A stretch of DNA of 64,000 bases from Podarcis vaucheri (Eukaryota), in assembly GCA_965113315.1 (NCBI GenBank), contig OZ220367.1; one strand, written 5' to 3'. The notes beneath the pieces were generated by a model. That model made no database searches. It was given only the letters and a program-made list of their open reading frames with translations, and had not been told where the DNA came from. A program made the translations under genes and the position numbers. Positions 1,172 to 64,000 of the stretch are shown here, one piece after another. How positions within the stretch are numbered: position 1 is the stretch's first letter; every line of letters starts with the position of its first letter.

Positions 1172-2223
1172 CATAGAATCATAGAATCATAGAGTTGGAA
1201 GAGACCACAAGAGCCATCGAGTCCAACCCCCTGCCAAGCAGGAAACACCATCAGAGCACTCCTGACATATGGTTGTCAAGCCTCTGCTTAAAGACCTCCA
1301 AAGTAGGAGACTCCACCACACTCCTTGGCAGCAAATTCCACTGTCGAACAGCTCTTACTGTCAGGAAGTTCTTCCTAATGTTTAGGTGGAATCTTCTTTC
1401 TTGTAGTTTGGATCCATTGCTCCGTGTCCGCTTCTCTGGAGCAGTAGAAAACAACCTTTCTCCCTCCTCTATGTGACATCCTTTTATATATTTGAACATG
1501 GCTATCATATCACCCCTTAACCTCCTCTTCTCCAGGCTAAACATGCCCAGCTCCCTTAGCCGTTCCTCATAAGGCATCGTTTCCAGGCCTTTGACCATTT
1601 TGGTTGCCCTCTTCTGGACACGTTCCAGTTTGTCAGTGTCCTTCTTGAATTGTGGTGCCCAGAACTGGACACAGTACTCCAGGTGTGGTCTGACCAGAGC
1701 AGAATACAGTGGCACTATTACTTCCCTTGATCTAGATGCTATACTCCTATTGATGCAGCCCAGAATTGCATTGGCTTTTTTAGCTGCCGCGTCACACTGT
1801 TGGCTCATGTCAAGTTTGTGGTCAACCAAGACTCCTAGATCCTTTTCACATGTACTGCTCTCAAGCCAGGTGTCACCCATCTTGTATTTGTGCCTCTCAT
1901 TTTTTTTGCCCAAGTGCAATACTTTACATTTCTCCCTGTTAAAATTCATCTTGTTTGTTTTTGCCCAGTTCTCTAATCTGTCAAGGTCGTTTTGAAGTGT
2001 GATCCTGTCCTCTGGGGTGTTAGCCACCCCTCCCAGTTTGGTGTCATCTGCAAATTTGATCAGGATGCCCTTGAGTCCATCATCCAAGTCGTTGATAAAG
2101 ATGTTGAATAAGACCGGGCCCAAGACAGAACCCTGTGGCACCCCACTAGTCACTCTTCTCCAGGATGAAGAGGAACCATTGATGAGCACCCTTTGATGAG
2201 CACCGGGCCCAAGACAGAACCCT
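1172..2223 (-). mobile_element. 5'-truncated CR1 LINE (RT C-terminal part, 3' UTR and (ATTCTATG)n tail)
   Basis: ORF 1251-2189 with [10 protein letters not shown] and KFADD RT motifs, no stops over 312 codons; octamer tail catagaat repeats at 1172-1192. Confidence 0.97.
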
Positions 2224-5200
2224 TCTCTCCCAGGCTATGCTGTACCTGTGCTACGATGGCTCCTGGCCATAATTTTTACAAATATTCTTGGAAAAAATTA
2301 AAAATTACTTTTCATTAAAATAATAATAATATGCCCTGTGACCTTCAGGCTACTCATCTGCTTAGTTTTGGTAACTCTTCAATATTGGGTGTTTCCAGAC
2401 CATTCACTGGGCCTTTCTCCAAGATGAAGCATTTTAAGCCTACACCCAACTATTAGGACTATGTCAGGCTGGAGGGGAGTGACTTACCCAAGAGATCTGT
2501 TTGTGACTGTTCAACTATTACCTTAAAGACTTGTGCTAATTAACTTTGCACTGTCTGATACTTTGTAGTAAGGAATTTCAAATGCTGGGCAGCCTGTCAA
2601 GAGGAGGGTTCCTTAGTGTGTTTTTTTTGGGGGGGGGGGAGCAGGGAGGTAATCAATCCATGTCTGTGTGTGCATTTGCCCATGCCAGTGACAGAGTTAG
2701 AATTAATGATTGGCAAAGCCAGGGACATGCCTTCTGGACTGGCTAATCCAGAATAAAGATTGATTTGCTTCAGTTTTCCCCATGGCTACATCAGGTTTGA
2801 ATTACCAGTCCTCTGAATTTCAAGTTTTGAATGAAATTTCTGATTTCAGTGTGTGTAAGTGGGGGGGGGGGGGAGAGAGACAGACAGACAGACATCCACA
2901 TTGTACATTTAAAGCTCATAACTTCCCACAAAGAATCTTTAGGTTGTTAAGGGTGCTGGGAATTGTAGCTCAATGAGTGGTAAGCTACAGTTCCCATGAT
3001 TCTTTAGGGGAAGCCATGGTGTGGATGACAGAAACGTACCAGTTTGTTCTCAGACAGCTGGGGGGGTTATTGTGGGGCCCACATTTCCCACCTGTGTTCT
3101 AAAGTAAGGGGTCAGCATCGAAAAACCACATAGCCTCATGAAATGGAGGCAGCAGAGTGTAGAGCAGTGCCACAAAATTCAGCATATATACAATGATGAA
3201 ATAAAGCTTGCTTTACTGTGGGGGTTCTAAGCATTATGCTGAATTGTGACTAAGAGTGCTTCCAGATAGGAGTTTATTATGGAATTGGTGCTGCTCATGT
3301 AGGCAAGGCTTGGTTTTGGTTTTTGTTCTTTTTTTCCACATGACATCATTGCCATTAAAATACTGGTCCTTGCTTCAAAAGTAATAATAATAATATGGAT
3401 CTCCCCTTACTATAGAAAATCTGATAAGTAAAAGCAGCCCATTAAGACATCTGCAATTACAGCTGGTATGGAAGCTTGTTAGCATTTTGGGGAGTGTGAT
3501 TTGGGTGGGTGGCTTCTAACACAACACCCCTATACTTCCATTTGCTTCCCAGTTGAGCACAATCTAACCATTTTCTTCCTGGTAGCTCAAATGATATGAG
3601 TGGGCTTATTTCCACCAACTGCTACATGCTGAAGGCACATTTGAATTTCAGCAACCTGATTAGGAGAAGCTGTTTTTCAAGATCTCTCTACTGTTGGGGG
3701 GGGGTATGTACCTCTGAGACTATGGGCTCCTCCACATTTACCTTTTGCCCCACACTTTCTAGGCTTTAAAATTAGATAAAAATATTAATCCCTCTTGTGC
3801 AAAAGCCTTGGTACTAAAAATTAGAAACAAACAAATGGAAATGTCCACCTTCCCCCACAAAAAAACCCAAAAACTACAAGTCTCTGTTTTTGCTTATTGT
3901 GAAACAAGATAACTAAGGCTTGCAACATTTGCTCTTGTGCACTTACTGAGAATTGTTTATGAAAAGGTGTCCTGAATAGAAAAAAGTTTGTGTAGTTTGT
4001 GATGTAGAAGTGGGGCACAAACCCACATGGGTGGAAAAACGATGATATGCAGGATTGAGAAAACTGGGGTGTGTGGAAGCCAACTACTCACACAGAGAGA
4101 TTGTATCTGAATGACCCATTTGTGATATAAGGCCCCAGTCTGGAAACACAACTGCGTGCAATTGAGTCAAATCTGGTAAACAAGAATAATAAGAATTGAA
4201 ACCGTTTGTGCTGTTCTGCAGCTAATCCCTTTTCCTCATCAGATTTTAGCTCCACTTCTGGCTAGCGTTATGTGTATATGTAATAAGGCTGGTACTTTGA
4301 AAAACTGTGATGTCCTGTACCAAAATCGTCATTTGGGCAAACATTTCGTCCCTTCAGCCTCACGGGAATTCTGTAAATGCTGTATACAGTATTGAGGCTC
4401 TTTTCTCTGCCTTTACCAAAATAAAAATAAAAATGGAATTAATCTGGTGGTCATGTGGACATCTATAAGGAATAACAATCTGCTTAAAAAAACAAAACGC
4501 TAACTAGGATTCAGACTGCTGTTCACATACACTTACCAGGGAGTAAACCCCTTCAAGAGAGTGGGGCTTACTTCTAAAAAGACACTTAGAAGAGTGCACT
4601 GTTAGCCAAATGCTGTCTAGCATACAACTGAGCGATGGTTATGCAACCGCACAATTTAGTCACAGTCGTGGGCAATACTTAACACATGAGTGTATACAAT
4701 CTAACAGAAAGTCAGGATGTTACTCCATTGAATGATTATAATTTTTAGTTTAGAGGCAATTATGAGTGTACTTACTACGAGGAGGCTATGGAAGAAATGG
4801 CAAAGATTTCTGAGGAGAGAATTCTGATTATACCTCAAGTTACCAAGGAGAACACTAGATGTATTTCAAAATGCTTTCTATTTTAAGGATTGTTCATCGT
4901 AATAGTCTGACAGGATATATTTAGAAGCGGCAGAGGTCCCCCCCTCCACCCCCCCTTCCTTGTCTGGGAAAATTCATACTACTTTATGCCACTATGGTTA
5001 TAAATCACATAATAAACTTTCCAGTTTCATGGAAAAATGGCAACCCTCAGCTTTGGTGTCTGATAGAAGGAAGATAAGTAATAAAGAGTCTCCTGTGTGA
5101 GAAGAAATAGGGAGAGCCTGCTGTTTTAATTTTGTTCCCAGCAGTGGGCCGAACTTTGTTCTTTCAGCGCCAACCTTCATGACTGGCTTGATTATAATGT

Positions 5201-9622: not shown

Positions 9623-9822
9623 NNNNNNNNNNNNNNNNNNNNNNNNNNNNNNNNNNNNNNNNNNNNNNNNNNNNNNNNNNNNNNNNNNNNNNNNNNNNNN
9701 NNNNNNNNNNNNNNNNNNNNNNNNNNNNNNNNNNNNNNNNNNNNNNNNNNNNNNNNNNNNNNNNNNNNNNNNNNNNNNNNNNNNNNNNNNNNNNNNNNNN
9801 NNNNNNNNNNNNNNNNNNNNNN
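9623..9822. other. Assembly gap (200 N)
   Basis: Run of exactly 200 N; true length unknown. Confidence 0.99.
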
Positions 9823-54095: not shown

Positions 54096-54233
54096 TTACT
54101 GGGGCATCAAATGTCTGACATTGTACTTGGATGTATCTTGGTACTGTGTCATGGGTTTGTCTGCAATTCCACACGTTCCAACTCCAACCTTCCCTGTTAC
54201 GCTCTCAGGAGAAGCAAAGATGCTTCGCTTTAC
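54096..54233 (-). CDS. SMNDC1: SMNDC1 exon 6 coding part: VKRSIFASPESVTGKVGVGTCGIADKPMTQYQDTSKYNVRHLMPQ*
   Basis: ttccacag acceptor; TAA at 54098-54096; exon lengths sum 120+143+162+154+138 = 717 nt = 238 aa plus stop. Confidence 0.97.
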   Translation of the reverse strand, partial: VKRSIFASPESVTGKVGVGTCGIADKPMTQYQDTSKYNVRHLMPQ

Positions 54234-55691: not shown

Positions 55692-55845
55692 CTGGCCTTT
55701 TTTGTTTTTTGAATAAGCTCTGTTGTTGAACTGCTGCCATTTGACTTTCTGGTCCTCTCGCTCTTGTTCCAGTTCTTTGATTCGCTGGGCCTTTTTCAAA
55801 GCTTTCTTCTTTTTATATTCTCGTTGCTGAGCAATCATTTCTTTT
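55692..55845 (-). CDS. SMNDC1: SMNDC1 exon 5: KEMIAQQREYKKKKALKKAQRIKELEQEREDQKVKWQQFNNRAYSKNKKGQ
   Basis: ctcattttag acceptor, 154 nt, CAG|gtttgt donor; basic helical/NLS segment. Confidence 0.97.
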
Positions 55846-57146
55846 CTAAAATGAGAAATGGCACTGAAGGTTACTTATGTACCTCAGTTTCCTCTTCAGA
55901 AAGTCTAAGGGCAGTAATGTGTCATGGCAAGGTGGTTGCTATACAATCAGGGCAAATTTTCACAAAACATCAAATATGAAGAGATTAAGCCGAGGTGGTT
56001 AATTCTGAGTTATCCATACTGCCTTACATCCACATCTTTACCCACCAGAACTGCCTTCTTTTTACAACACTGGCAGTTCAGCCACAGTATATGGCAATGG
56101 TTTTGTATGGGCATTACATCTACATTGCAACCAACTGGAAGCCCCACATCACCTTTGCTTTAACTTCACTTTTGTTCTCAGAACATGTAGATAAAAGCAA
56201 GGATACACTGATTAAGAGAGTCTCACCTTGGGCTAGGTGAATGTAAAGATAAACTCTCAGTACAATGGGGCTTCAGCTGTCCAGGCCCATTTCATTCTCC
56301 AGCTGTAGAAAGTGCTGTCATTCCTTCTGTAAAGCAATCTGTGCATTGCAAGTTTCAATAAAGCACAGCAATCCTACTTTCATGCACTACTACGAATAAC
56401 AGCTCTCTTTCAGAAATCAGTTGAAACTAGCTAATGTCTTGCTAAACACAGAGCAACTCTAGCTCAGAATTTGTCCCAGGGGAAATATACTACTACACAG
56501 GCATGGAGCAATCATTTTGGAGTTCATGAGACTAGCCAACTCAGCATGATAAGCATTAAAGTTAGTAGCACAAACCATTACACCTTCATCATAATCTCAA
56601 ACCACTATGTATATGTTCACAGTAGGGATTGAGGATAATGTAAGAACTGCATTTTTAAGAACTGACCTAATTCACTCCATATATTTCAATCCATATTTAA
56701 AGATTCTTTTTCATTTGGATTTTTTTAAAAAATCACAGATTAATGTGAAATTGGAAGGGACCTATGAACAAGCACAAACAGAACAGAAACTGACACATCT
56801 GACCATCCCTAGTTCTTAGTTCAGTCCTAAGATGCCAAAGACTGTTTGGGGCTTTACAAGTTTCCCTAGGTTGGACCTCTGAAATTGGGGCAGCGAAGCC
56901 CATATCCTAAGGCATTATTTAATTTGGGGGGGGGGAGAATAGACAATGTGCATTACCTCTTTCCCAAATCTAGGGTAACTACGCAGAGTATGGTTCAATA
57001 ATATCTAAGGATAGTGTTGACTTCTATGACTTTTTTGCTGTAAAATCACCTTTGGGAAGAGATGATTCATCAGCAAAGTAGCCTTACAGCTCTTCTTATT
57101 GCTATATGACACACTGAGCCAACTGAAAACTGTTTCAGCCACTTAC

Positions 57147-57308
57147 TTGGACATGGGTTTGTTGCCACTGTCTTCCTTTGCTTTCCTTCCCTCTTCCACA
57201 GGTTTCAGATTGAGCAGGGGTGTGACTTCAGCATTGCCATATCCCGAAAAGGTGACTGCAGCTGTGCCATTCTCTTCATCTATCTCTTCAATTTCAGCTT
57301 CATAACAC
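57147..57308 (-). CDS. SMNDC1: SMNDC1 exon 4: CYEAEIEEIDEENGTAAVTFSGYGNAEVTPLLNLKPVEEGRKAKEDSGNKPMS(K), rest of Tudor domain
   Basis: ctttacag acceptor, 162 nt, AA|gtaagt donor; SMN-type Tudor aromatic cage residues present. Confidence 0.97.
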
Positions 57309-59063
57309 CTGTAAAGATATCATGGCTGTAAGCATGTGAGTAATGGTTTACAACTCAACCCTACAAAACTTGTATTTGCAGTGATTAATATTAATATTAA
57401 GTTTCAGGACATTCCTGCTTCATTTTGGATTGACATTTCAAGTCAAAACTCTTAAAACATAAATTCTGTTCAAGAATTGTCAGGTGCCTGGCACACAAAA
57501 TAGTTACAATCCTAAAGTCCAAGAGCTGGTTAGTCAACTGATTTGAAATAAACTTCAGTTTTGAACCTTTTGTTACCACATATATATTTTCACCTTCACA
57601 CATTTAACCTGACCTTTGTTTGATTTTGTGAGAACTAATTTGTTTAATAGAATCTGGAGGATTCATGTTTGGCTGTTTTATAATTTGTACTAATTTTCAC
57701 CACCACAAGAGGCATTCAGCCACAATACCCATGTATTTCGAAGTTCTATGGGACTTACATCTTAGGAGATATGTATGCATAGGATTACAATGTGAGATTG
57801 TAATTTGACAGAGGTTTCACTGCCCTCATATAATCTCCCTCTCTGAAAGCAAGCAGTGAATTACTAACGTAAGAAGATGGATTAAGAAAAGCATTAAGCA
57901 ATGTAGGGTTTGTGACAGTAACTTAAAAGAAGATAGATAATCAAGGTAATTATCTATTTTTCTCAATCACATCACCTGATACTCAAAAGCAGTACATCCT
58001 GAAGTAAACTAAGTGGAATGTCTGGGCCCAGGCATCTCAGGGGCCTAAATGGAGAAGCGGAAGGCCATGGCAAGAAAGAGACCCCAACCTTGCAGAAAAA
58101 GAACTGCTGGTTGTCTTCTTCCCATAAGGTATTAAAAAATACCTCTACCAGAAGGCAGGTCAAAGGCAACAGGACTAGGAGAAAATGTGTTGGTTCACAC
58201 CATCACTTTCTGCTGTCAGCAAATCATACCAAACAGAATGACTCTGAGGGGTTTACTGCTGCATCCCACTTCAGCAAAGACCAAGGAGAATTGAATTTCT
58301 TCTGGTGGAGGACCATCACTGATTCACTTTGGAAATGTGCAAAAGGATACACCCTAGTGGTACATCACTATTTGTGAAGGGAGCTCTAAATGTCTTTATT
58401 CAACCCTCTTAAAATATTTGCCTGTGGATAGTTTTGGGAAGGATGTTAAATGCCCTGCTTTATATTCCCTTACCACCATGTCTGGATGGGTGCAACAACC
58501 ACAGATCCTCCCAAAAGCAGCAGCCTTCTACATGTACACAATTGTGAGCAAGGACCTCTGCTTTCTCTAAGCCCATTCCTGCCCCACTTCAAAGAATAAA
58601 TTTACAGTACAGAAAAGGGGGAGGAAGCAGTGGAAAAGTTTGCTGCCCTATACTTCTTTCCCTACTGCCGCCTCAATGGTTCCCAAGTATCTTAATACAA
58701 TCTCAACAGAGTTCCAAGTTTTGAAATAAATGACATTCCAATTAACATTTTCAGATTAGGGATGAAATGTATACACAACAGATTTCAGTTACTGCACAAC
58801 AGATTTTTCGAAGGTGGCAAATTTTAAAAGATATTAGAAGCCATATTATAGTGTACAACGTTCTAGTCAAATTAAACAATTAAAACAATGGACCTGGCTC
58901 TAAAGTTTAATATATTTTGTATTTGAAAAATACAAGATCCAATCAATGATTTTTACTGAACTGGTGCTCAGCCAAAGAGGAGAGTATAAACCAAAGGGAA
59001 GTATCTTACCATGGAACTGTATTATTTCATGTAACTGTTACAGAAGTTTGTTTCTACACTTAC

Positions 59064-59206
59064 TGTCCATCTTCACTCCATATTGCCATACATCTGTCTC
59101 CAACCTTCCATGTGTGACTTGGAGGAGCAGAAGCAGAACTGTCAGAACTTGCAAGTGTTTCTGAAGGTTGTGTTGAAAGAAGGTCTTTGGTTAATTCTAT
59201 AACTTC
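59064..59206 (-). CDS. SMNDC1: SMNDC1 exon 3: EVIELTKDLLSTQPSETLASSDSSASAPPSHTWKVGDRCMAIWSEDG(Q), start of Tudor domain
   Basis: ttccatccccag acceptor, 143 nt, CA|gtaagt donor; manual translation of the minus strand. Confidence 0.97.
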
Positions 59207-60147
59207 CTGGGGATGGAAAAGAACAAGTCGTCAAACACAGTTTAAGTAGACTCACCCCTGCCTATGCATGAAGACTATTTACCAACTGCGGTATTGCTGG
59301 CAAATGGTAGCAGACTGAACAACACATGAAATTTGTCCGCATAATTTACTAAAGGTTTTTCTATAAGCTTTGGGAATCTGGTTTCTTAGCAAGTATCAAA
59401 TACTACTCCCATAGCTCATCCCAATTTTAATATTGGGGGAGGGCAGCAAGGAAATTTCTCGTTTGCATTACAAATGAGTATTATATTTAATGGAAGAGTA
59501 AAAAGTAGACTGCAGAAAATGATACACAACTACAGAATGGAGTTTTCTGCTCTCCTTCCAGTGATAAAGCAAGTATTACTGAGACTTTAAAAAAAGAAAA
59601 TTATTGTGCAATGAATGCACTGGCTAGTGGAAGAAATAGGTTTTTCAGCAAGTTTTCTTGCTTGAATACTGAAAAACTGTACTTATGTGAGAATAGCCCA
59701 CTATACACAAACCAGATACAAAGAATGAACGCATACAGAAAATACTTTTGTTTATAAAATACATATGAGCAAGGACTCAGTAGTTTCCTGCATATGTTTT
59801 TTGCTATTTAGAGATTATAAAGAAAACTATTAATAGGCTATAGCTACAGGTAATAAATTACATGTATTTTAGATTTTTAAATCTACTGGATTGTATCCAA
59901 TACTGTTGTCCCACTTGTGCAACAGAACTTCTCTTTCCTTTCCTCTCCCTTGTACCCACTCAAAATCTGTTCCAGAAGGTTGGGATAGCCTCTGAAGCAG
60001 ATTTTTGGGGTATCCAGGGAAAGGAGAGGAAGGTAAAACACATAACACATTGTTGTCAAACTAATTTCCCTCATCTACTTTTTCCTTCCTTCCTTCCTTC
60101 CGCTTCCCTTCCCCTCCTCTTTTTCTCTTGTCCCTTTAATTTGTAAC

Positions 60148-60246
60148 CATGGGGCGGGGCCTCTGCATCATTTCATTTAGGCAGTGAGCCTGCCACCATC
60201 ATTGAACTTTTGATTGAGATGAGCTTCTCTGAGAGACAGTATCTGC
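60148..60246 (-). other. SMNDC1: Candidate SMNDC1 poison (PTC) cassette exon in intron 2; 3' boundary uncertain
   Basis: Long pyrimidine tract ttctatttttattccacctttcag|GCAGAT; in exon-2 frame reads ADTVSQRSSSQSKVQ then TGA (60201-60199); weak donor ATG|gttaca at 60148/60147. Confidence 0.6.
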
Positions 60247-61057
60247 CTGAAAGGTGGAATAAAAATAGAACAAATTTTAACAAGAAAAGGAATAATTTAA
60301 TACATATGCACCTTTCATATCTGATGCGATTAAGACTTGTCTTTTGTCCTCAGATATTGGCAGCTGAACAATAAGCTTGTAAAAGGCTGCTCTTACATGT
60401 AGAAATGGCAAAGAAAACATGAATGAACAAACAGACCATATGACAAATTCATTTGCAAAATACAGTCTAAGAGCTAGAACCACTGATGACTGTTTAGTGC
60501 TTGCAAGGCACACCTGAGTCATATACTAAAGATAACAGCACACGTAATAGTGCATTATCTAGTATTCTAAATTTGTTTCCTAAAAGACCCTAGTTTACAG
60601 TGATTTTCAAAAAGCAAAACTCAAATGAACACACAGATAAACATTTACTCCAGGACAGTGCTTTTCAATTTGTGGTAATCATTCCACCTGGCTTAATGTA
60701 AAAGATTACAAGTTTTTTAAAAAAGCATTTAGAGATCAGTGTTAAAGTATCAGTATTAAAAGACTGCATACAGCACTGAGCAAAATATAAAAGTACGAAG
60801 TTCTATTGATTAACCAGCTACATTAACCCATTAAAACTTTTTAGCAACTAAAAAGGTGCCCCAATTGACTGAGCAGAAGGTTCTTAAATATACATATTTT
60901 CGGCACACAAGCACTCATAAAAATTGTGGGTGGCAAACACCATCTTTAAAAAAGCATTTTTTCTCATGCACAAGCAAATGCCTTTTCTGAGATAATAACT
61001 CTTACAATTCACATGTGGATCGTCTGAAAACAAAATGGCTTATTTGTTCATTTATTT

Positions 61058-61366
61058 CAGGGGTCAGCAAACTTTTTCAGCAGACCCCTCAAACCTTGTG
61101 GGGGGGCCAGACTATTTTTTTTTTCGGGGGGGAGAACGAATTCCTATGCCTCACAAATAACCCAGAAAGGCATTTTAAATAAAAGCACACATTCTACTCA
61201 TGTAAAAACACCAGGCAGGCCCCACAAATAACCCAGAGATGCATTTTAAATAAAAGGACACCTTCTACTCATGTAAAAACACGCTGATTCCCGGACAGTC
61301 TGAGGGCCAGATTTAGAAGGCGATTGGACCGGATCTGGCCCCCGGGCCTTAGTTTGCCTACCCATG
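61058..61366. mobile_element. Non-autonomous hAT element in SMNDC1 intron 2
   Basis: CAGGGGTCAGCAAACT ... AGTTTGCCTACCCATG; TSD atttattt/atttatct; internal direct repeat of about 60 bp (61152-61211 and 61223-61282). Confidence 0.85.
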
Positions 61367-61673
61367 ATTTATCTGACTTATATGGCCCCCTTCATCAAAA
61401 GATCTCAGGGCGGTTGATTGCTTCTGAACTCTCATTTTTACTCAGGTGCATATTTTATGTCAATTTAATTGCCAAAAATTCATACAATTGAGATGCCTTT
61501 AATCACTTTAATGAGGTGACAGCCCTAGTTCTTTGTGAAAGATTTTAAACCCCAACATTTAGCACATCTCGTTAATATCACCATAGTAAATTCTTTGCCA
61601 CTGACAGTGTAGAAGATCCTCTTCACTATACGTGTAAAAACATTTAAGTTACAAAGCTATTTCTTATTCTCAC

Positions 61674-61793
61674 CTGTAAGTCTTTTTTGAGCTTTAGTAA
61701 ATCTTCATTTTCTCCATTTCCCGTCAAAGCAGCTTCAACTTGTTGGAGTTGAGCTTTATAGCTAGCTAACTGTTTTGCAAGGTCTTCTGACAT
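61674..61793 (-). CDS. SMNDC1: SMNDC1 exon 2 (first coding): MSEDLAKQLASYKAQLQQVEAALTGNGENEDLLKLKKDLQ
   Basis: ttttcccttttccag|ATG; 120 nt; CAG|gtgaga donor; matches SPF30 N-terminus. Confidence 0.97.
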
Positions 61794-61899: not shown

Positions 61900-62220
61900 T
61901 CATGTGCACACGATTTGCCCAGAATCCAAATCAGAGCTGCCTTTAGGGAGGAGAGTGGTTCCTCATGAACCAGAAACATGACTCATGTCAATAAGGAGTT
62001 GTGCCTTCAGTGTTGTGGACCCAATTCCATGGAATGCCTCCGCTACACCAGAAGGCACCAACCCTACTGAATTTCAGGTGCCTGGTGCAACCTGTTTTAT
62101 TGCAGGAGACCTTTGCACCTTGAATCCTTCTTAGATGTTTACATTTTTTATTTATCTGTTGCTGTACACCACCCTAATGGTCCTGTTACTTAAGGGTAGC
62201 TTACAAATATATTAAACATT
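61900..62220 (+). mobile_element. Decayed L2-like LINE 3' fragment in SMNDC1 intron 1
   Basis: gccttcagtgttgtggaccc...tggaatgcctcc motif and AT-rich tail; approximate. Confidence 0.5.
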
Positions 62221-62839
62221 CTGCACATTCCAAGATTCTGTTGTATTCAGTTTTCCAGAACACAGTCCTTGAGAAGTATGACTATTCAACTGTTCTTAAC
62301 ACGAGAGTCATTTTCAGCATCATACTGGACAACCAAACCCCTTGCCTGACCTTGACTAAATCCTTCTCTCTTAGCATTAGTTCCCATAAGGAAATTCACA
62401 GCAACACATGGATTGTGTTTATGGATCTTCTGCCACAATTCTGTTATCTAGCCTTGGACAAACCTCTTTCCTCAGTCTTTGTCAAGGTGACAGATACAAG
62501 ATGGTACAGATCACAGAGCGGGTGAGGCATGGAGCAGAGCTGGGGTGGAACTCTTGAGCATCAAACTAGTGCTCACTTTGGAAATATAAAAACTGAAAGC
62601 AATCCAAACACAGATCCTTTGTTAATACCTAAGAACTATCCTAGTCCTTTCAACACCGGGTGTGAAGTTTAGAGAACACTATCTGTACAGAATTAGCAGA
62701 AGCCAAATTTGGTAGGAATGGCTTGAATAGCACGTGACCTGCAAATTCTGCATATCAACACCATACTGTGGACAATACCCTCTTTATAATCACATTACAA
62801 GGATACAACCCGACAAAAAAGGACTTGACTCCAATTAAA

Positions 62840-63890
62840 AGGCCCATACGCCGAAAAAAAGCCCGCAAAAGCGGTGCCATTAAAACCCAGCTGTCCTGCT
62901 ACAAAGGAGCGGGGGTTTCGGGACAGAATGGAAGAGCCGAGACGGACCTCCCGTAAAAAAAAACAGTATAATCCTCGGAACACAGAAGGCGAATCTTGCA
63001 AGCCGACGAAACAGGCCTCCACGTGCGGGAAGCCCGCAGACAATGGCTGGCCGTAGACAAAACTTCAGGCGGCGGAATCACTGGGAACCGGGCGGAAAAC
63101 GCGCCTGGGCCTGAGGGAGGGCCTAACGGAGGCCCCGGAGCGAGTGAGGAAGGGGCCGGAGGCCTGGAGAGCCGAGCGCCGTGTACGGAGAGGGGAGGTC
63201 GTGACGGAGGGTCGAGGAGAGCGAAGGGCCTCCCCGCCTTCGCCCTGCGAGAGGAGAGGGAAGTGGGGGAAGGGCCGCGCCTCTCACCTTGGCCTCGCGC
63301 GCCGGGGGCCTCTCTCCGTCCCGTCAGGCCTCAGGAGAAGCGGCTGTACTCGCGCGCGCGCGCACCCACGCGAGATTTGCCACCCCCCCTCCCGACCCCC
63401 AACGAACGTCGCCCCCTCCCTTCTTGCTGCTTCCTAGCGACGACGCCAAGAGCCCGGTCGGCGGAAATGAACGCTCGCGAGAGGGGGAAGCCGGACCTGA
63501 CGAAGAAGCCGGATCACATGACCACTCCGGGGGTGGGGAAAGCACAAACCAAGAGGAAGATCGAAACCGATACTTCCGACTCCCAGTTGCGATTCCTTGG
63601 AATCCTCCATGTGCGGGGCGAGAGTGGCGGAAGTGCAAAATAAGTAGCGTTCGGCATGTGAGAGTCAACGCAAAAAACCCAATCTCGCCGCAGGGCTTAT
63701 TATTTAAACTGATCGAATCTTCTAGGGGGGAATCGGAGCGGGATTTCTGCCCTTCTGAAATAATTATTTTGGCGGGGGGCACCGCTGCTTTTAACTGCCT
63801 TGTGCTCAGGTTCTCCTCGCTGGTTCCTCGCAGGCCTCTGGCTGGCCAATGAGAACAGGGCGCGGGACTAGGTGGGCCATTGGCCTGACA
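62840..63890. promoter_or_regulatory. CpG-island promoter of SMNDC1
   Basis: Abrupt rise in GC and CpG; ETS-like GGCGGAAGTG near 63626, TCTCGCGAG (BANP/ZBTB33-type) at 63474-63482, CCAAT 63846-63850, ATTGG 63879-63883, CACGTG 63020-63025. Confidence 0.9.
63288..63480 (-). other. SMNDC1: SMNDC1 non-coding exon 1 (5' UTR); start site approximate
   Basis: Strong donor GCCAAG|gtgaga at 63288/63287 inside the CpG island; exon 2 begins at the ATG, so an upstream exon is required. The 5' end is a guess (about 63470-63640). Confidence 0.7.
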
Positions 63891-63928
63891 TGTTATGCAC
63901 CTGGAAATAAGCCCTATTGGATCCCAAA

Positions 63929-64000
63929 GGAGCAAGACTCTTAACGTCAAGGTCATGGGTTTGAGCCCCACGTTGGGCAAAAGTTTCCTGCCTTGCAGGG
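63929..64000 (+). mobile_element. tRNA-Lys(CTT)-derived SINE fragment, running off the window
   Basis: gactcttaa...ggtcatgggtttgagccccacgttgggc matches the 3' two-thirds of tRNA-Lys-CTT, then continues into SINE body (aaaag.ttcctgc.ttgcaggg); 5' acceptor arm is missing. Confidence 0.75.

What the first reader, a model, noticed from the sequence alone, without database searches (positions are those of the whole stretch)
57280..57330. Alternative acceptor exactly 17 nt upstream of SMNDC1 exon 4 creates a PTC
Seen: minus strand reads atgcTTACAG|ccatgatatctTTACAG|GTGTTATG, two TTACAG acceptors 17 nt apart (AGs at 57327-57326 and 57310-57309). Use of the upstream one shifts the frame to HHDIFTGVMKLKLKR then TAG at 57282-57280, 133 nt before the next junction, so NMD-competent and truncating the Tudor domain. 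From recall, human SPF30 autoregulates through a 17-nt-extended exon 4. Inference: that switch is conserved in a reptile, implying amniote-wide selection on an unproductive acceptor.
Basis: partly seen in the sequence, partly recalled or inferred. Interest (0 to 1): 0.7.

Follow-up and report, generated by a model that had tools for sequence, protein, structure and literature searches.

The report
Known SMNDC1 self-limiting splice site, reptile
A second splice acceptor sits 17 bases before exon 4 of this reptile's SMNDC1 splicing-factor gene; its use would cause an early stop, and it is likely the same self-limiting switch already shown in human cells and already reported as conserved from fish to mammals, so it is real but ordinary.

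Summary
It is the orthologue of human SPF30/SMNDC1 'exon 4a' (PMC12398788): SPF30 binds its own exon 4, shifts splicing 17 nt upstream, and NMD removes the message. That paper already says exon 4a is retained in fish and birds, so conservation is in print and wider than amniotes. An out-of-frame upstream YAG alone is common (29-41% of YAG sites here). The support is comparative: 9 of 141 fetched proteins carry the exon-4a tail (coral snake 15/15 identical to this window's, bat, mouse, two rat, four unnamed), and F199/S201/V209 are kept. Junction use, NMD and feedback in this species are untested. One small extra: the rodent intron-2 poison exon is undetectable in this intron 2, so exon 4a may be the only switch here. 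Already known; interest 0.15.

The parts
57326..57327 (-). Upstream acceptor AG (exon 4a 3' splice site)
   Evidence: pyrimidine fraction 0.69 at -20..-5
57309..57325 (-). 17-nt exon 4a extension (last 17 nt of intron 3), ending in the canonical AG at 57310-57309
   Evidence: its six encoded residues are identical in snake, bat, mouse and rat records, which fixes 11 of the 17 nt
57147..57308 (-). Exon 4, 162 nt, C-terminal part of the Tudor domain
   Evidence: SMN_Tudor E 1.3e-05
57296..57306 (-). Exon 4 nt 3-13, the position of the element needed in human for SPF30 binding and exon 4a regulation
   Evidence: position from PMC12398788; by nearest-codon reading the bat record differs from the window at 1 of 11 positions, mouse and rat at 2; human letters not seen
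57280..57282 (-). Premature TAG in the exon 4a frame
   Evidence: 133 nt to the exon 4/5 junction, 287 nt to the exon 5/6 junction
57295..57328 (-). Predicted hairpin: 10-bp stem pairing 57324-57315 with 57310-57301 (covers the canonical AG), plus a 4-bp lower stem
   Evidence: -14.1 kcal/mol for 64 nt, z -1.92, 10 of 200 shuffles fold as well; prediction only
57329..57337 (-). Branch-point-like YTNAY adenosines at 57337 (29 nt from canonical AG end, 12 from the 4a AG end) and 57329 (21 and 4)
   Evidence: motif scan; motif recalled, use untested
59064..59206 (-). Exon 3, 143 nt, ends in phase 2; donor shared by exon 4 and exon 4a
   Evidence: SMN_Tudor E 3.1e-05
61674..61793 (-). Exon 2, 120 nt, starts with the ATG
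59207..61673 (-). Intron 2, 2467 nt; holds the poison cassette exon in mammals, no detectable homologue here
55692..55845 (-). Exon 5, 154 nt; its two junctions lie downstream of the PTC
54096..54233 (-). Coding part of exon 6; encodes residues 197-217 (54224-54162) with F199, S201, V209, the region needed for feedback in human

Best explanation
This is the squamate orthologue of the SMNDC1/SPF30 exon 4a acceptor, and it likely works as the same negative-feedback switch shown in human cells. Shown here: two competing AGs 17 nt apart with modest pyrimidine tracts (0.62 and 0.69), a frameshift to a stop far upstream of two junctions, and an intact C-terminal RNA-binding segment. Shown in human only: SPF30 binds exon 4 nt 3-13 through residues 197-217, raises use of the upstream AG, and the product is cleared by UPF1-dependent NMD. 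Inferred for this species: more SPF30 moves splicing of intron 3 from the canonical to the upstream AG, the message is destroyed, SPF30 falls. A predicted stem that covers the canonical AG may set the baseline ratio but is probably not the sensor.
For: Anatomy matches human exactly: 17 nt, PTC inside exon 4. 9 of 141 fetched proteins continue from exon 3 into the exon 4a tail: Micrurus P0001 (99/102 identical to this window's predicted product, tail 15/15), Pipistrellus P0018, mouse P0081, rat P0079 and P0080, four unnamed Logan proteins; 8 of the 9 keep all six extension residues. Nine positions outside the canonical YAG are forced identical between mouse and this window; chance under intron 3 base composition about 5e-7 if the intron were otherwise saturated (an assumption). 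Residues 197-217 are identical in 8 of 10 compared proteins and differ at one site in the two fish; F199, S201, V209 present. The paper reports exon 4a retained in fish and birds.
Against: No junction counts, NMD block or SPF30 perturbation in this species. An out-of-frame upstream YAG is common by chance. No bird, turtle, crocodilian, amphibian or fish record with the tail was found. The human letters and Fig. S7 were not seen. The origin of the Micrurus record in a transcript assembly is recalled, not shown; a gene model would be weaker evidence. In the human minigene, replacing part of the 17 nt (mut2) did not remove regulation, so feedback alone does not explain why those bases are conserved.
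Confidence: 0.85

Rival explanations
1. The upstream AG is used and feeds NMD, but in squamates at a fixed leak rate or under another factor, not under SPF30.
For: Only the isoform, not its regulation, is seen outside mammals (P0001). Both acceptors have modest tracts and a branch-point-like A lies 12 nt above the upstream AG, which would allow plain AG competition. An unidentified partner protein is implied in human.
Against: The trans side (residues 197-217) is invariant and exon 4 nt 3-13 differs from bat at about 1 of 11 positions; in human, 4a use falls 14- to 30-fold without SPF30.
Confidence: 0.08
2. The upstream AG is silent in this species; the 17 nt are conserved because the canonical acceptor or the hairpin needs them.
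For: The 17 nt are also the tract of the canonical site; a predicted 10-bp stem is compatible with 7 of the 8 tail-bearing records tested, one by an A-U to G-U change; upstream YAGs are common.
Against: A snake record is the spliced 4a product with an identical tail; purines within the tract are conserved, which a plain pyrimidine tract does not need; the stem is only marginally better than shuffles (10 of 200) and mouse breaks one pair.
Confidence: 0.05
3. The point of the acceptor is a 102-aa protein (N-terminal helices, broken Tudor, basic tail), not decay.
For: The product is 102 aa in this window, snake, bat and mouse, with a similar basic tail.
Against: Rat runs on to 121 aa, so length is not kept; the tail is dictated by the overlapping canonical frame; human 4a transcripts rise with cycloheximide and the feedback is rescued by UPF1 knockdown.
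Confidence: 0.02

Closest known systems
Human SPF30/SMNDC1 exon 4a autoregulatory acceptor (Izumikawa et al. 2025, PMC12398788)
   Same: Same gene, same intron, 17-nt offset, PTC in exon 4, predicted stem between the extension and the start of exon 4, F199/S201/V209 present; vertebrate conservation already stated there.
   Different: Only the species: squamates are not named in the main text (0 hits for 'lizard' in the preprint; journal Discussion read). Here the upstream AG is predicted paired in a 4-bp lower stem, in human it is predicted in a loop; that lower stem has one mismatch in all 7 non-snake records tested. Regulation untested here.
Smndc1 intron-2 poison cassette exon (Belleville et al. 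2024, PMC11357089)
   Same: Second AS-NMD feedback switch in the same gene; reported in human, mouse, chicken EST and Arabidopsis.
   Different: A cassette exon, not an alternative acceptor. No homologue of the rodent exon was detected in this intron 2 (best score 16.7 bits, 31 of 60 shuffles as high).
AS-NMD autoregulation of splicing factors (SRSF1, SRSF2, PTB, hnRNP L, hnRNP D, TDP-43; as listed in PMC12398788)
   Same: A factor promotes an unproductive splice form of its own pre-mRNA.
   Different: Most are cassette exons or 3' UTR introns (recalled); this is a short frame-shifting 3' splice-site shift in a spliceosome assembly factor.

Membership tests
SMNDC1/SPF30 exon 4a AS-NMD switch | Gene is the SMNDC1 orthologue | tested here: met
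   238 aa, 233/238 to P0002 (Anolis-named SMNDC1 cluster), SMN_Tudor on exons 3-4
SMNDC1/SPF30 exon 4a AS-NMD switch | YAG acceptor exactly 17 nt upstream of the exon 4 acceptor | tested here: met
SMNDC1/SPF30 exon 4a AS-NMD switch | Frameshift to a PTC in exon 4, more than 50-55 nt upstream of a junction (rule recalled) | tested here: met
   133 and 287 nt
SMNDC1/SPF30 exon 4a AS-NMD switch | Extension conserved with mammals | tested here: met
   6/6 extension residues in bat, mouse, rat and snake records; 11 of 17 nt thereby fixed; protein-level only, human not compared
SMNDC1/SPF30 exon 4a AS-NMD switch | Upstream acceptor used in transcripts | tested here: inconclusive
   Spliced product on record for a coral snake and mammals; no junction counts for this species
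SMNDC1/SPF30 exon 4a AS-NMD switch | Cis element at exon 4 nt 3-13 | tested here: inconclusive
   1-2 of 11 positions differ from bat, mouse, rat by nearest-codon reading; human sequence (Fig. 4A, Table S2) not readable
SMNDC1/SPF30 exon 4a AS-NMD switch | Trans element: residues 197-217 with F199, S201, V209 | tested here: met
SMNDC1/SPF30 exon 4a AS-NMD switch | 4a transcript stabilised by NMD block | not testable with these tools
   needs cycloheximide or UPF1 knockdown data in this species
SMNDC1/SPF30 exon 4a AS-NMD switch | 4a use depends on SPF30 dose | not testable with these tools
   shown in human cells only
Smndc1 intron-2 poison cassette exon | Homologue of the mammalian cassette exon in intron 2 | tested here: not met
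   tblastn of rodent poison-exon peptides: no hit; degenerate DNA profile at shuffle level; planted copies found 30/30 at 70% identity, 24/30 at 60%, 10/30 at 55%

The most novel reading that the evidence does not exclude
This squamate lineage has lost the intron-2 poison exon that turtles, alligators and mammals keep, so exon 4a is its only SMNDC1 feedback switch, with its set point tuned by a conserved stem that hides the canonical AG. Lizards would then be a natural single-switch test of the published idea that exon 4a is the older and stronger arm.
Probability: 0.3. Interest if true: 0.35.

Novelty: already known. Interest (0 to 1): 0.15.

Why it matters
Little is new. The mechanism and its vertebrate conservation were published in 2025. 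This window adds a squamate instance, public protein records showing the 4a product in a snake, bat, mouse and rat, and a hint that the other switch (intron-2 poison exon) is lost or strongly diverged here. That would interest people working on SMNDC1 dosage or on how AS-NMD switches are gained and lost, as one more data point.

Tried and rejected
Sequencing runs: 24 runs listed, no RNA holder listed; four 2026 raw RNA runs shared a species label with a partial holder. No reads were laid, so junction use in this species stays open. No whole genome is held for the window. Supplement of PMC12398788 too large to read: Fig. S7 alignment, S6 fold and Table S2 unseen, and they bear on novelty (squamates may be in S7) and on the cis-element comparison. 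PMC2447145 (Saltzman 2008) not held. Fish-centred search for short forms: 7 hits among 62 candidates; the four non-amniote-like short proteins (P0090, P0091, P0093, P0143) all end at the end of exon 3, none with a 4a tail; weak evidence. Bird short forms P0003 and P0070 have other tails and were not counted. 70 of the 141 proteins lacked the exon-3-end motif used for sorting and were not classed by script; seven of them were read by eye. Literature: 'SPF30' + 'exon 4a' gives only that paper and its preprint; the 20 listed of 3318 papers in the squamate search and the 25 listed of 60 in the alternative-acceptor search showed no reptile SMNDC1 splicing study. Earlier scan notes: none. Rejected: the repeated hexamer as evidence in itself (46 of 4314 YAG sites have one within 8-30 nt); the hairpin as the sensor (human mut2 keeps regulation; z only -1.92). 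Searches were input slips, corrected in 18, 26, 33.

Full report
Observation. The window holds SMNDC1 (SPF30) on the minus strand. Five coding exons with GT-AG introns give 238 aa, 233/238 identical to the Anolis-named cluster representative and 231/238 to a crow-named one, consistent with a squamate; the exon 3 search ranks snake and Anolis records first. Splicing exon 3 (ends 59064, phase 2) to 57325 yields 102 aa with TAG at 57282-57280, 133 nt before the exon 4/5 junction and 287 nt before the exon 5/6 junction, well past the 50-55-nt rule (recalled). The Tudor domain (residues 72-122) is cut after G87, keeping W83 and losing Y90, F108 and Y111 (positions; their role as the methyl-arginine cage is recalled).

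Chance. Among 4314 YAG sites on both strands of the window, 171 have a YAG at exactly -17, 1778 an out-of-frame YAG 8-30 nt upstream, 3 the same hexamer at -17 and 46 the same hexamer 8-30 nt upstream. Intron 4 of this gene has a CAG at -18. A second AG is therefore unremarkable on its own; only comparison makes it meaningful.

What is in print. I read the abstract, introduction, results and discussion of PMC12398788 (parts 1-5 of 9) plus passages; no figures, no supplement. [quoted passage not shown] Replacing part of the 17 nt, or the upstream intron and branch point, did not remove regulation. [quoted passage not shown] The preprint has the same passage (passages only). Of PMC11357089 I read one section and passages: it covers the intron-2 poison exon only. 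A search for SPF30 with exon 4a finds only that paper and its preprint.

Independent comparative evidence. Of 141 proteins fetched, 9 run from exon 3 into the 4a tail, 50 are canonical, 9 stop at the end of exon 3, 3 have other tails and 70 lack the sorting motif. The nine are Micrurus P0001 (99/102 identical to this window's predicted product, tail 15/15), Pipistrellus P0018, mouse P0081, rat P0079 (named isoform 2) and P0080, and four unnamed Logan proteins. Eight keep all six extension residues; P0096 keeps four. Rat's tail is 34 residues, so the stop position is not fixed. These residues force 11 of the 17 nt to be identical; the nine outside the canonical YAG, with the degenerate positions, would match at about 5e-7 under intron 3 composition if the intron were saturated (saturation assumed). 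That the Micrurus record comes from a transcript assembly is my recall; (listing only) shows that such transcriptomes exist, not that this accession is from them. No bird, turtle, crocodilian, amphibian or fish record with the tail was found, which is weak evidence either way. Residues 197-217 are identical in 8 of 10 proteins compared and differ at one site in two fish.

Mechanism. Shown in the sequence: two acceptors with pyrimidine fractions 0.62 (canonical) and 0.69 (4a) against 0.69-0.88 for the other four acceptors; branch-point-like adenosines 29 and 21 nt above the canonical AG end, 12 and 4 nt above the 4a AG end. Predicted: a 10-bp stem pairing the extension with the canonical AG and the first 8 nt of exon 4 (-14.1 kcal/mol for 64 nt, z -1.92, 10 of 200 shuffles as good), like the one predicted in human. 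By nearest-codon reading the stem is compatible with 7 of the 8 tail-bearing records tested (P0080, same tail as P0079, left out); mouse breaks one pair, P0096 changes one pair to G-U, and the 4-bp lower stem has one mismatch in all seven non-snake records. Inferred: SPF30 binds the start of exon 4 via its C-terminal segment and favours the upstream AG; the frame-shifted message goes to NMD; SPF30 level is buffered. The stem may set the baseline but is probably not the sensor, since human mut2 keeps regulation; why the 17 nt are so conserved is not fully explained. Confidence 0.85; rivals are unregulated leak (0.08), silent AG (0.05), functional short protein (0.02). No reads were laid, so use, decay and feedback in this species are untested.

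The other switch. Mouse P0120, rat P0112 and Apodemus P0025 carry a 60-61-residue insert after exon 2, which in P0120 runs into frame-shifted exon 3; I take it to be the poison exon (inferred). It gave no tblastn hit in this intron 2 (34 non-canonical tails searched, one weak unrelated hit) and a degenerate DNA profile scored 16.7 bits against a shuffle mean of 17.1 (31 of 60 as high). Planted copies were found 30 of 30 times at 70% identity, 24 of 30 at 60% and 10 of 30 at 55%. So the mammal-type exon is absent or under roughly 60-65% identical. An unrelated poison exon is not excluded: intron 2 has acceptor-like sites at 60525 and 60246 and donor-like sites at 60397 and 59256.

Verdict. Interest 0.15. 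The boldest reading left is a single-switch squamate gene (probability 0.3, interest 0.35).

Noticed in passing
window 59207-61673 (-): No detectable homologue of the rodent intron-2 poison exon, although it is reported in turtles and alligators.
   Followed up: partly
window 59256 (-): The best-scoring donor-like site of intron 2 lies only 49 nt above the exon 3 acceptor, probably too close to splice to it; chance or decoy (matrix recalled).
   Followed up: no
window 60525-60397 and 60246 (-): Acceptor-like and donor-like pair spanning 129 nt, and a strong acceptor-like site at 60246, in intron 2: candidates for an unrelated cryptic exon.
   Followed up: no
window 55863-55864 (-): Intron 4 also has a CAG 18 nt above its acceptor (in frame, pyrimidine fraction 0.44), a likely unused control case.
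   Followed up: partly
window 59063-59060 (-): Retention of intron 3 gives a stop right after residue 88; 9 of 141 fetched proteins end there, most likely unspliced or gene-model fragments.
   Followed up: no
P0070 (Cairina moschata record): 95-aa duck record whose tail starts like exon 4a (first residue) and then diverges; unexplained, perhaps a gene-model artefact.
   Followed up: no
window 61148-61282: Two-copy 71-nt tandem repeat, 92% alike, inside what looks like an interspersed repeat in intron 2.
   Followed up: no
window 1251-2234 (-): 327-aa open frame with a reverse transcriptase domain (RVT_1, E 8e-16), likely a LINE fragment; 13 other frames tested had no Pfam hit.
   Followed up: no
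window 63288 (-) and 62001-64000: Donor-like site in a GC-rich stretch (GC 0.52): probable end of non-coding exon 1; 5' end not determined. A 200-N gap lies at 9623-9822.
   Followed up: no
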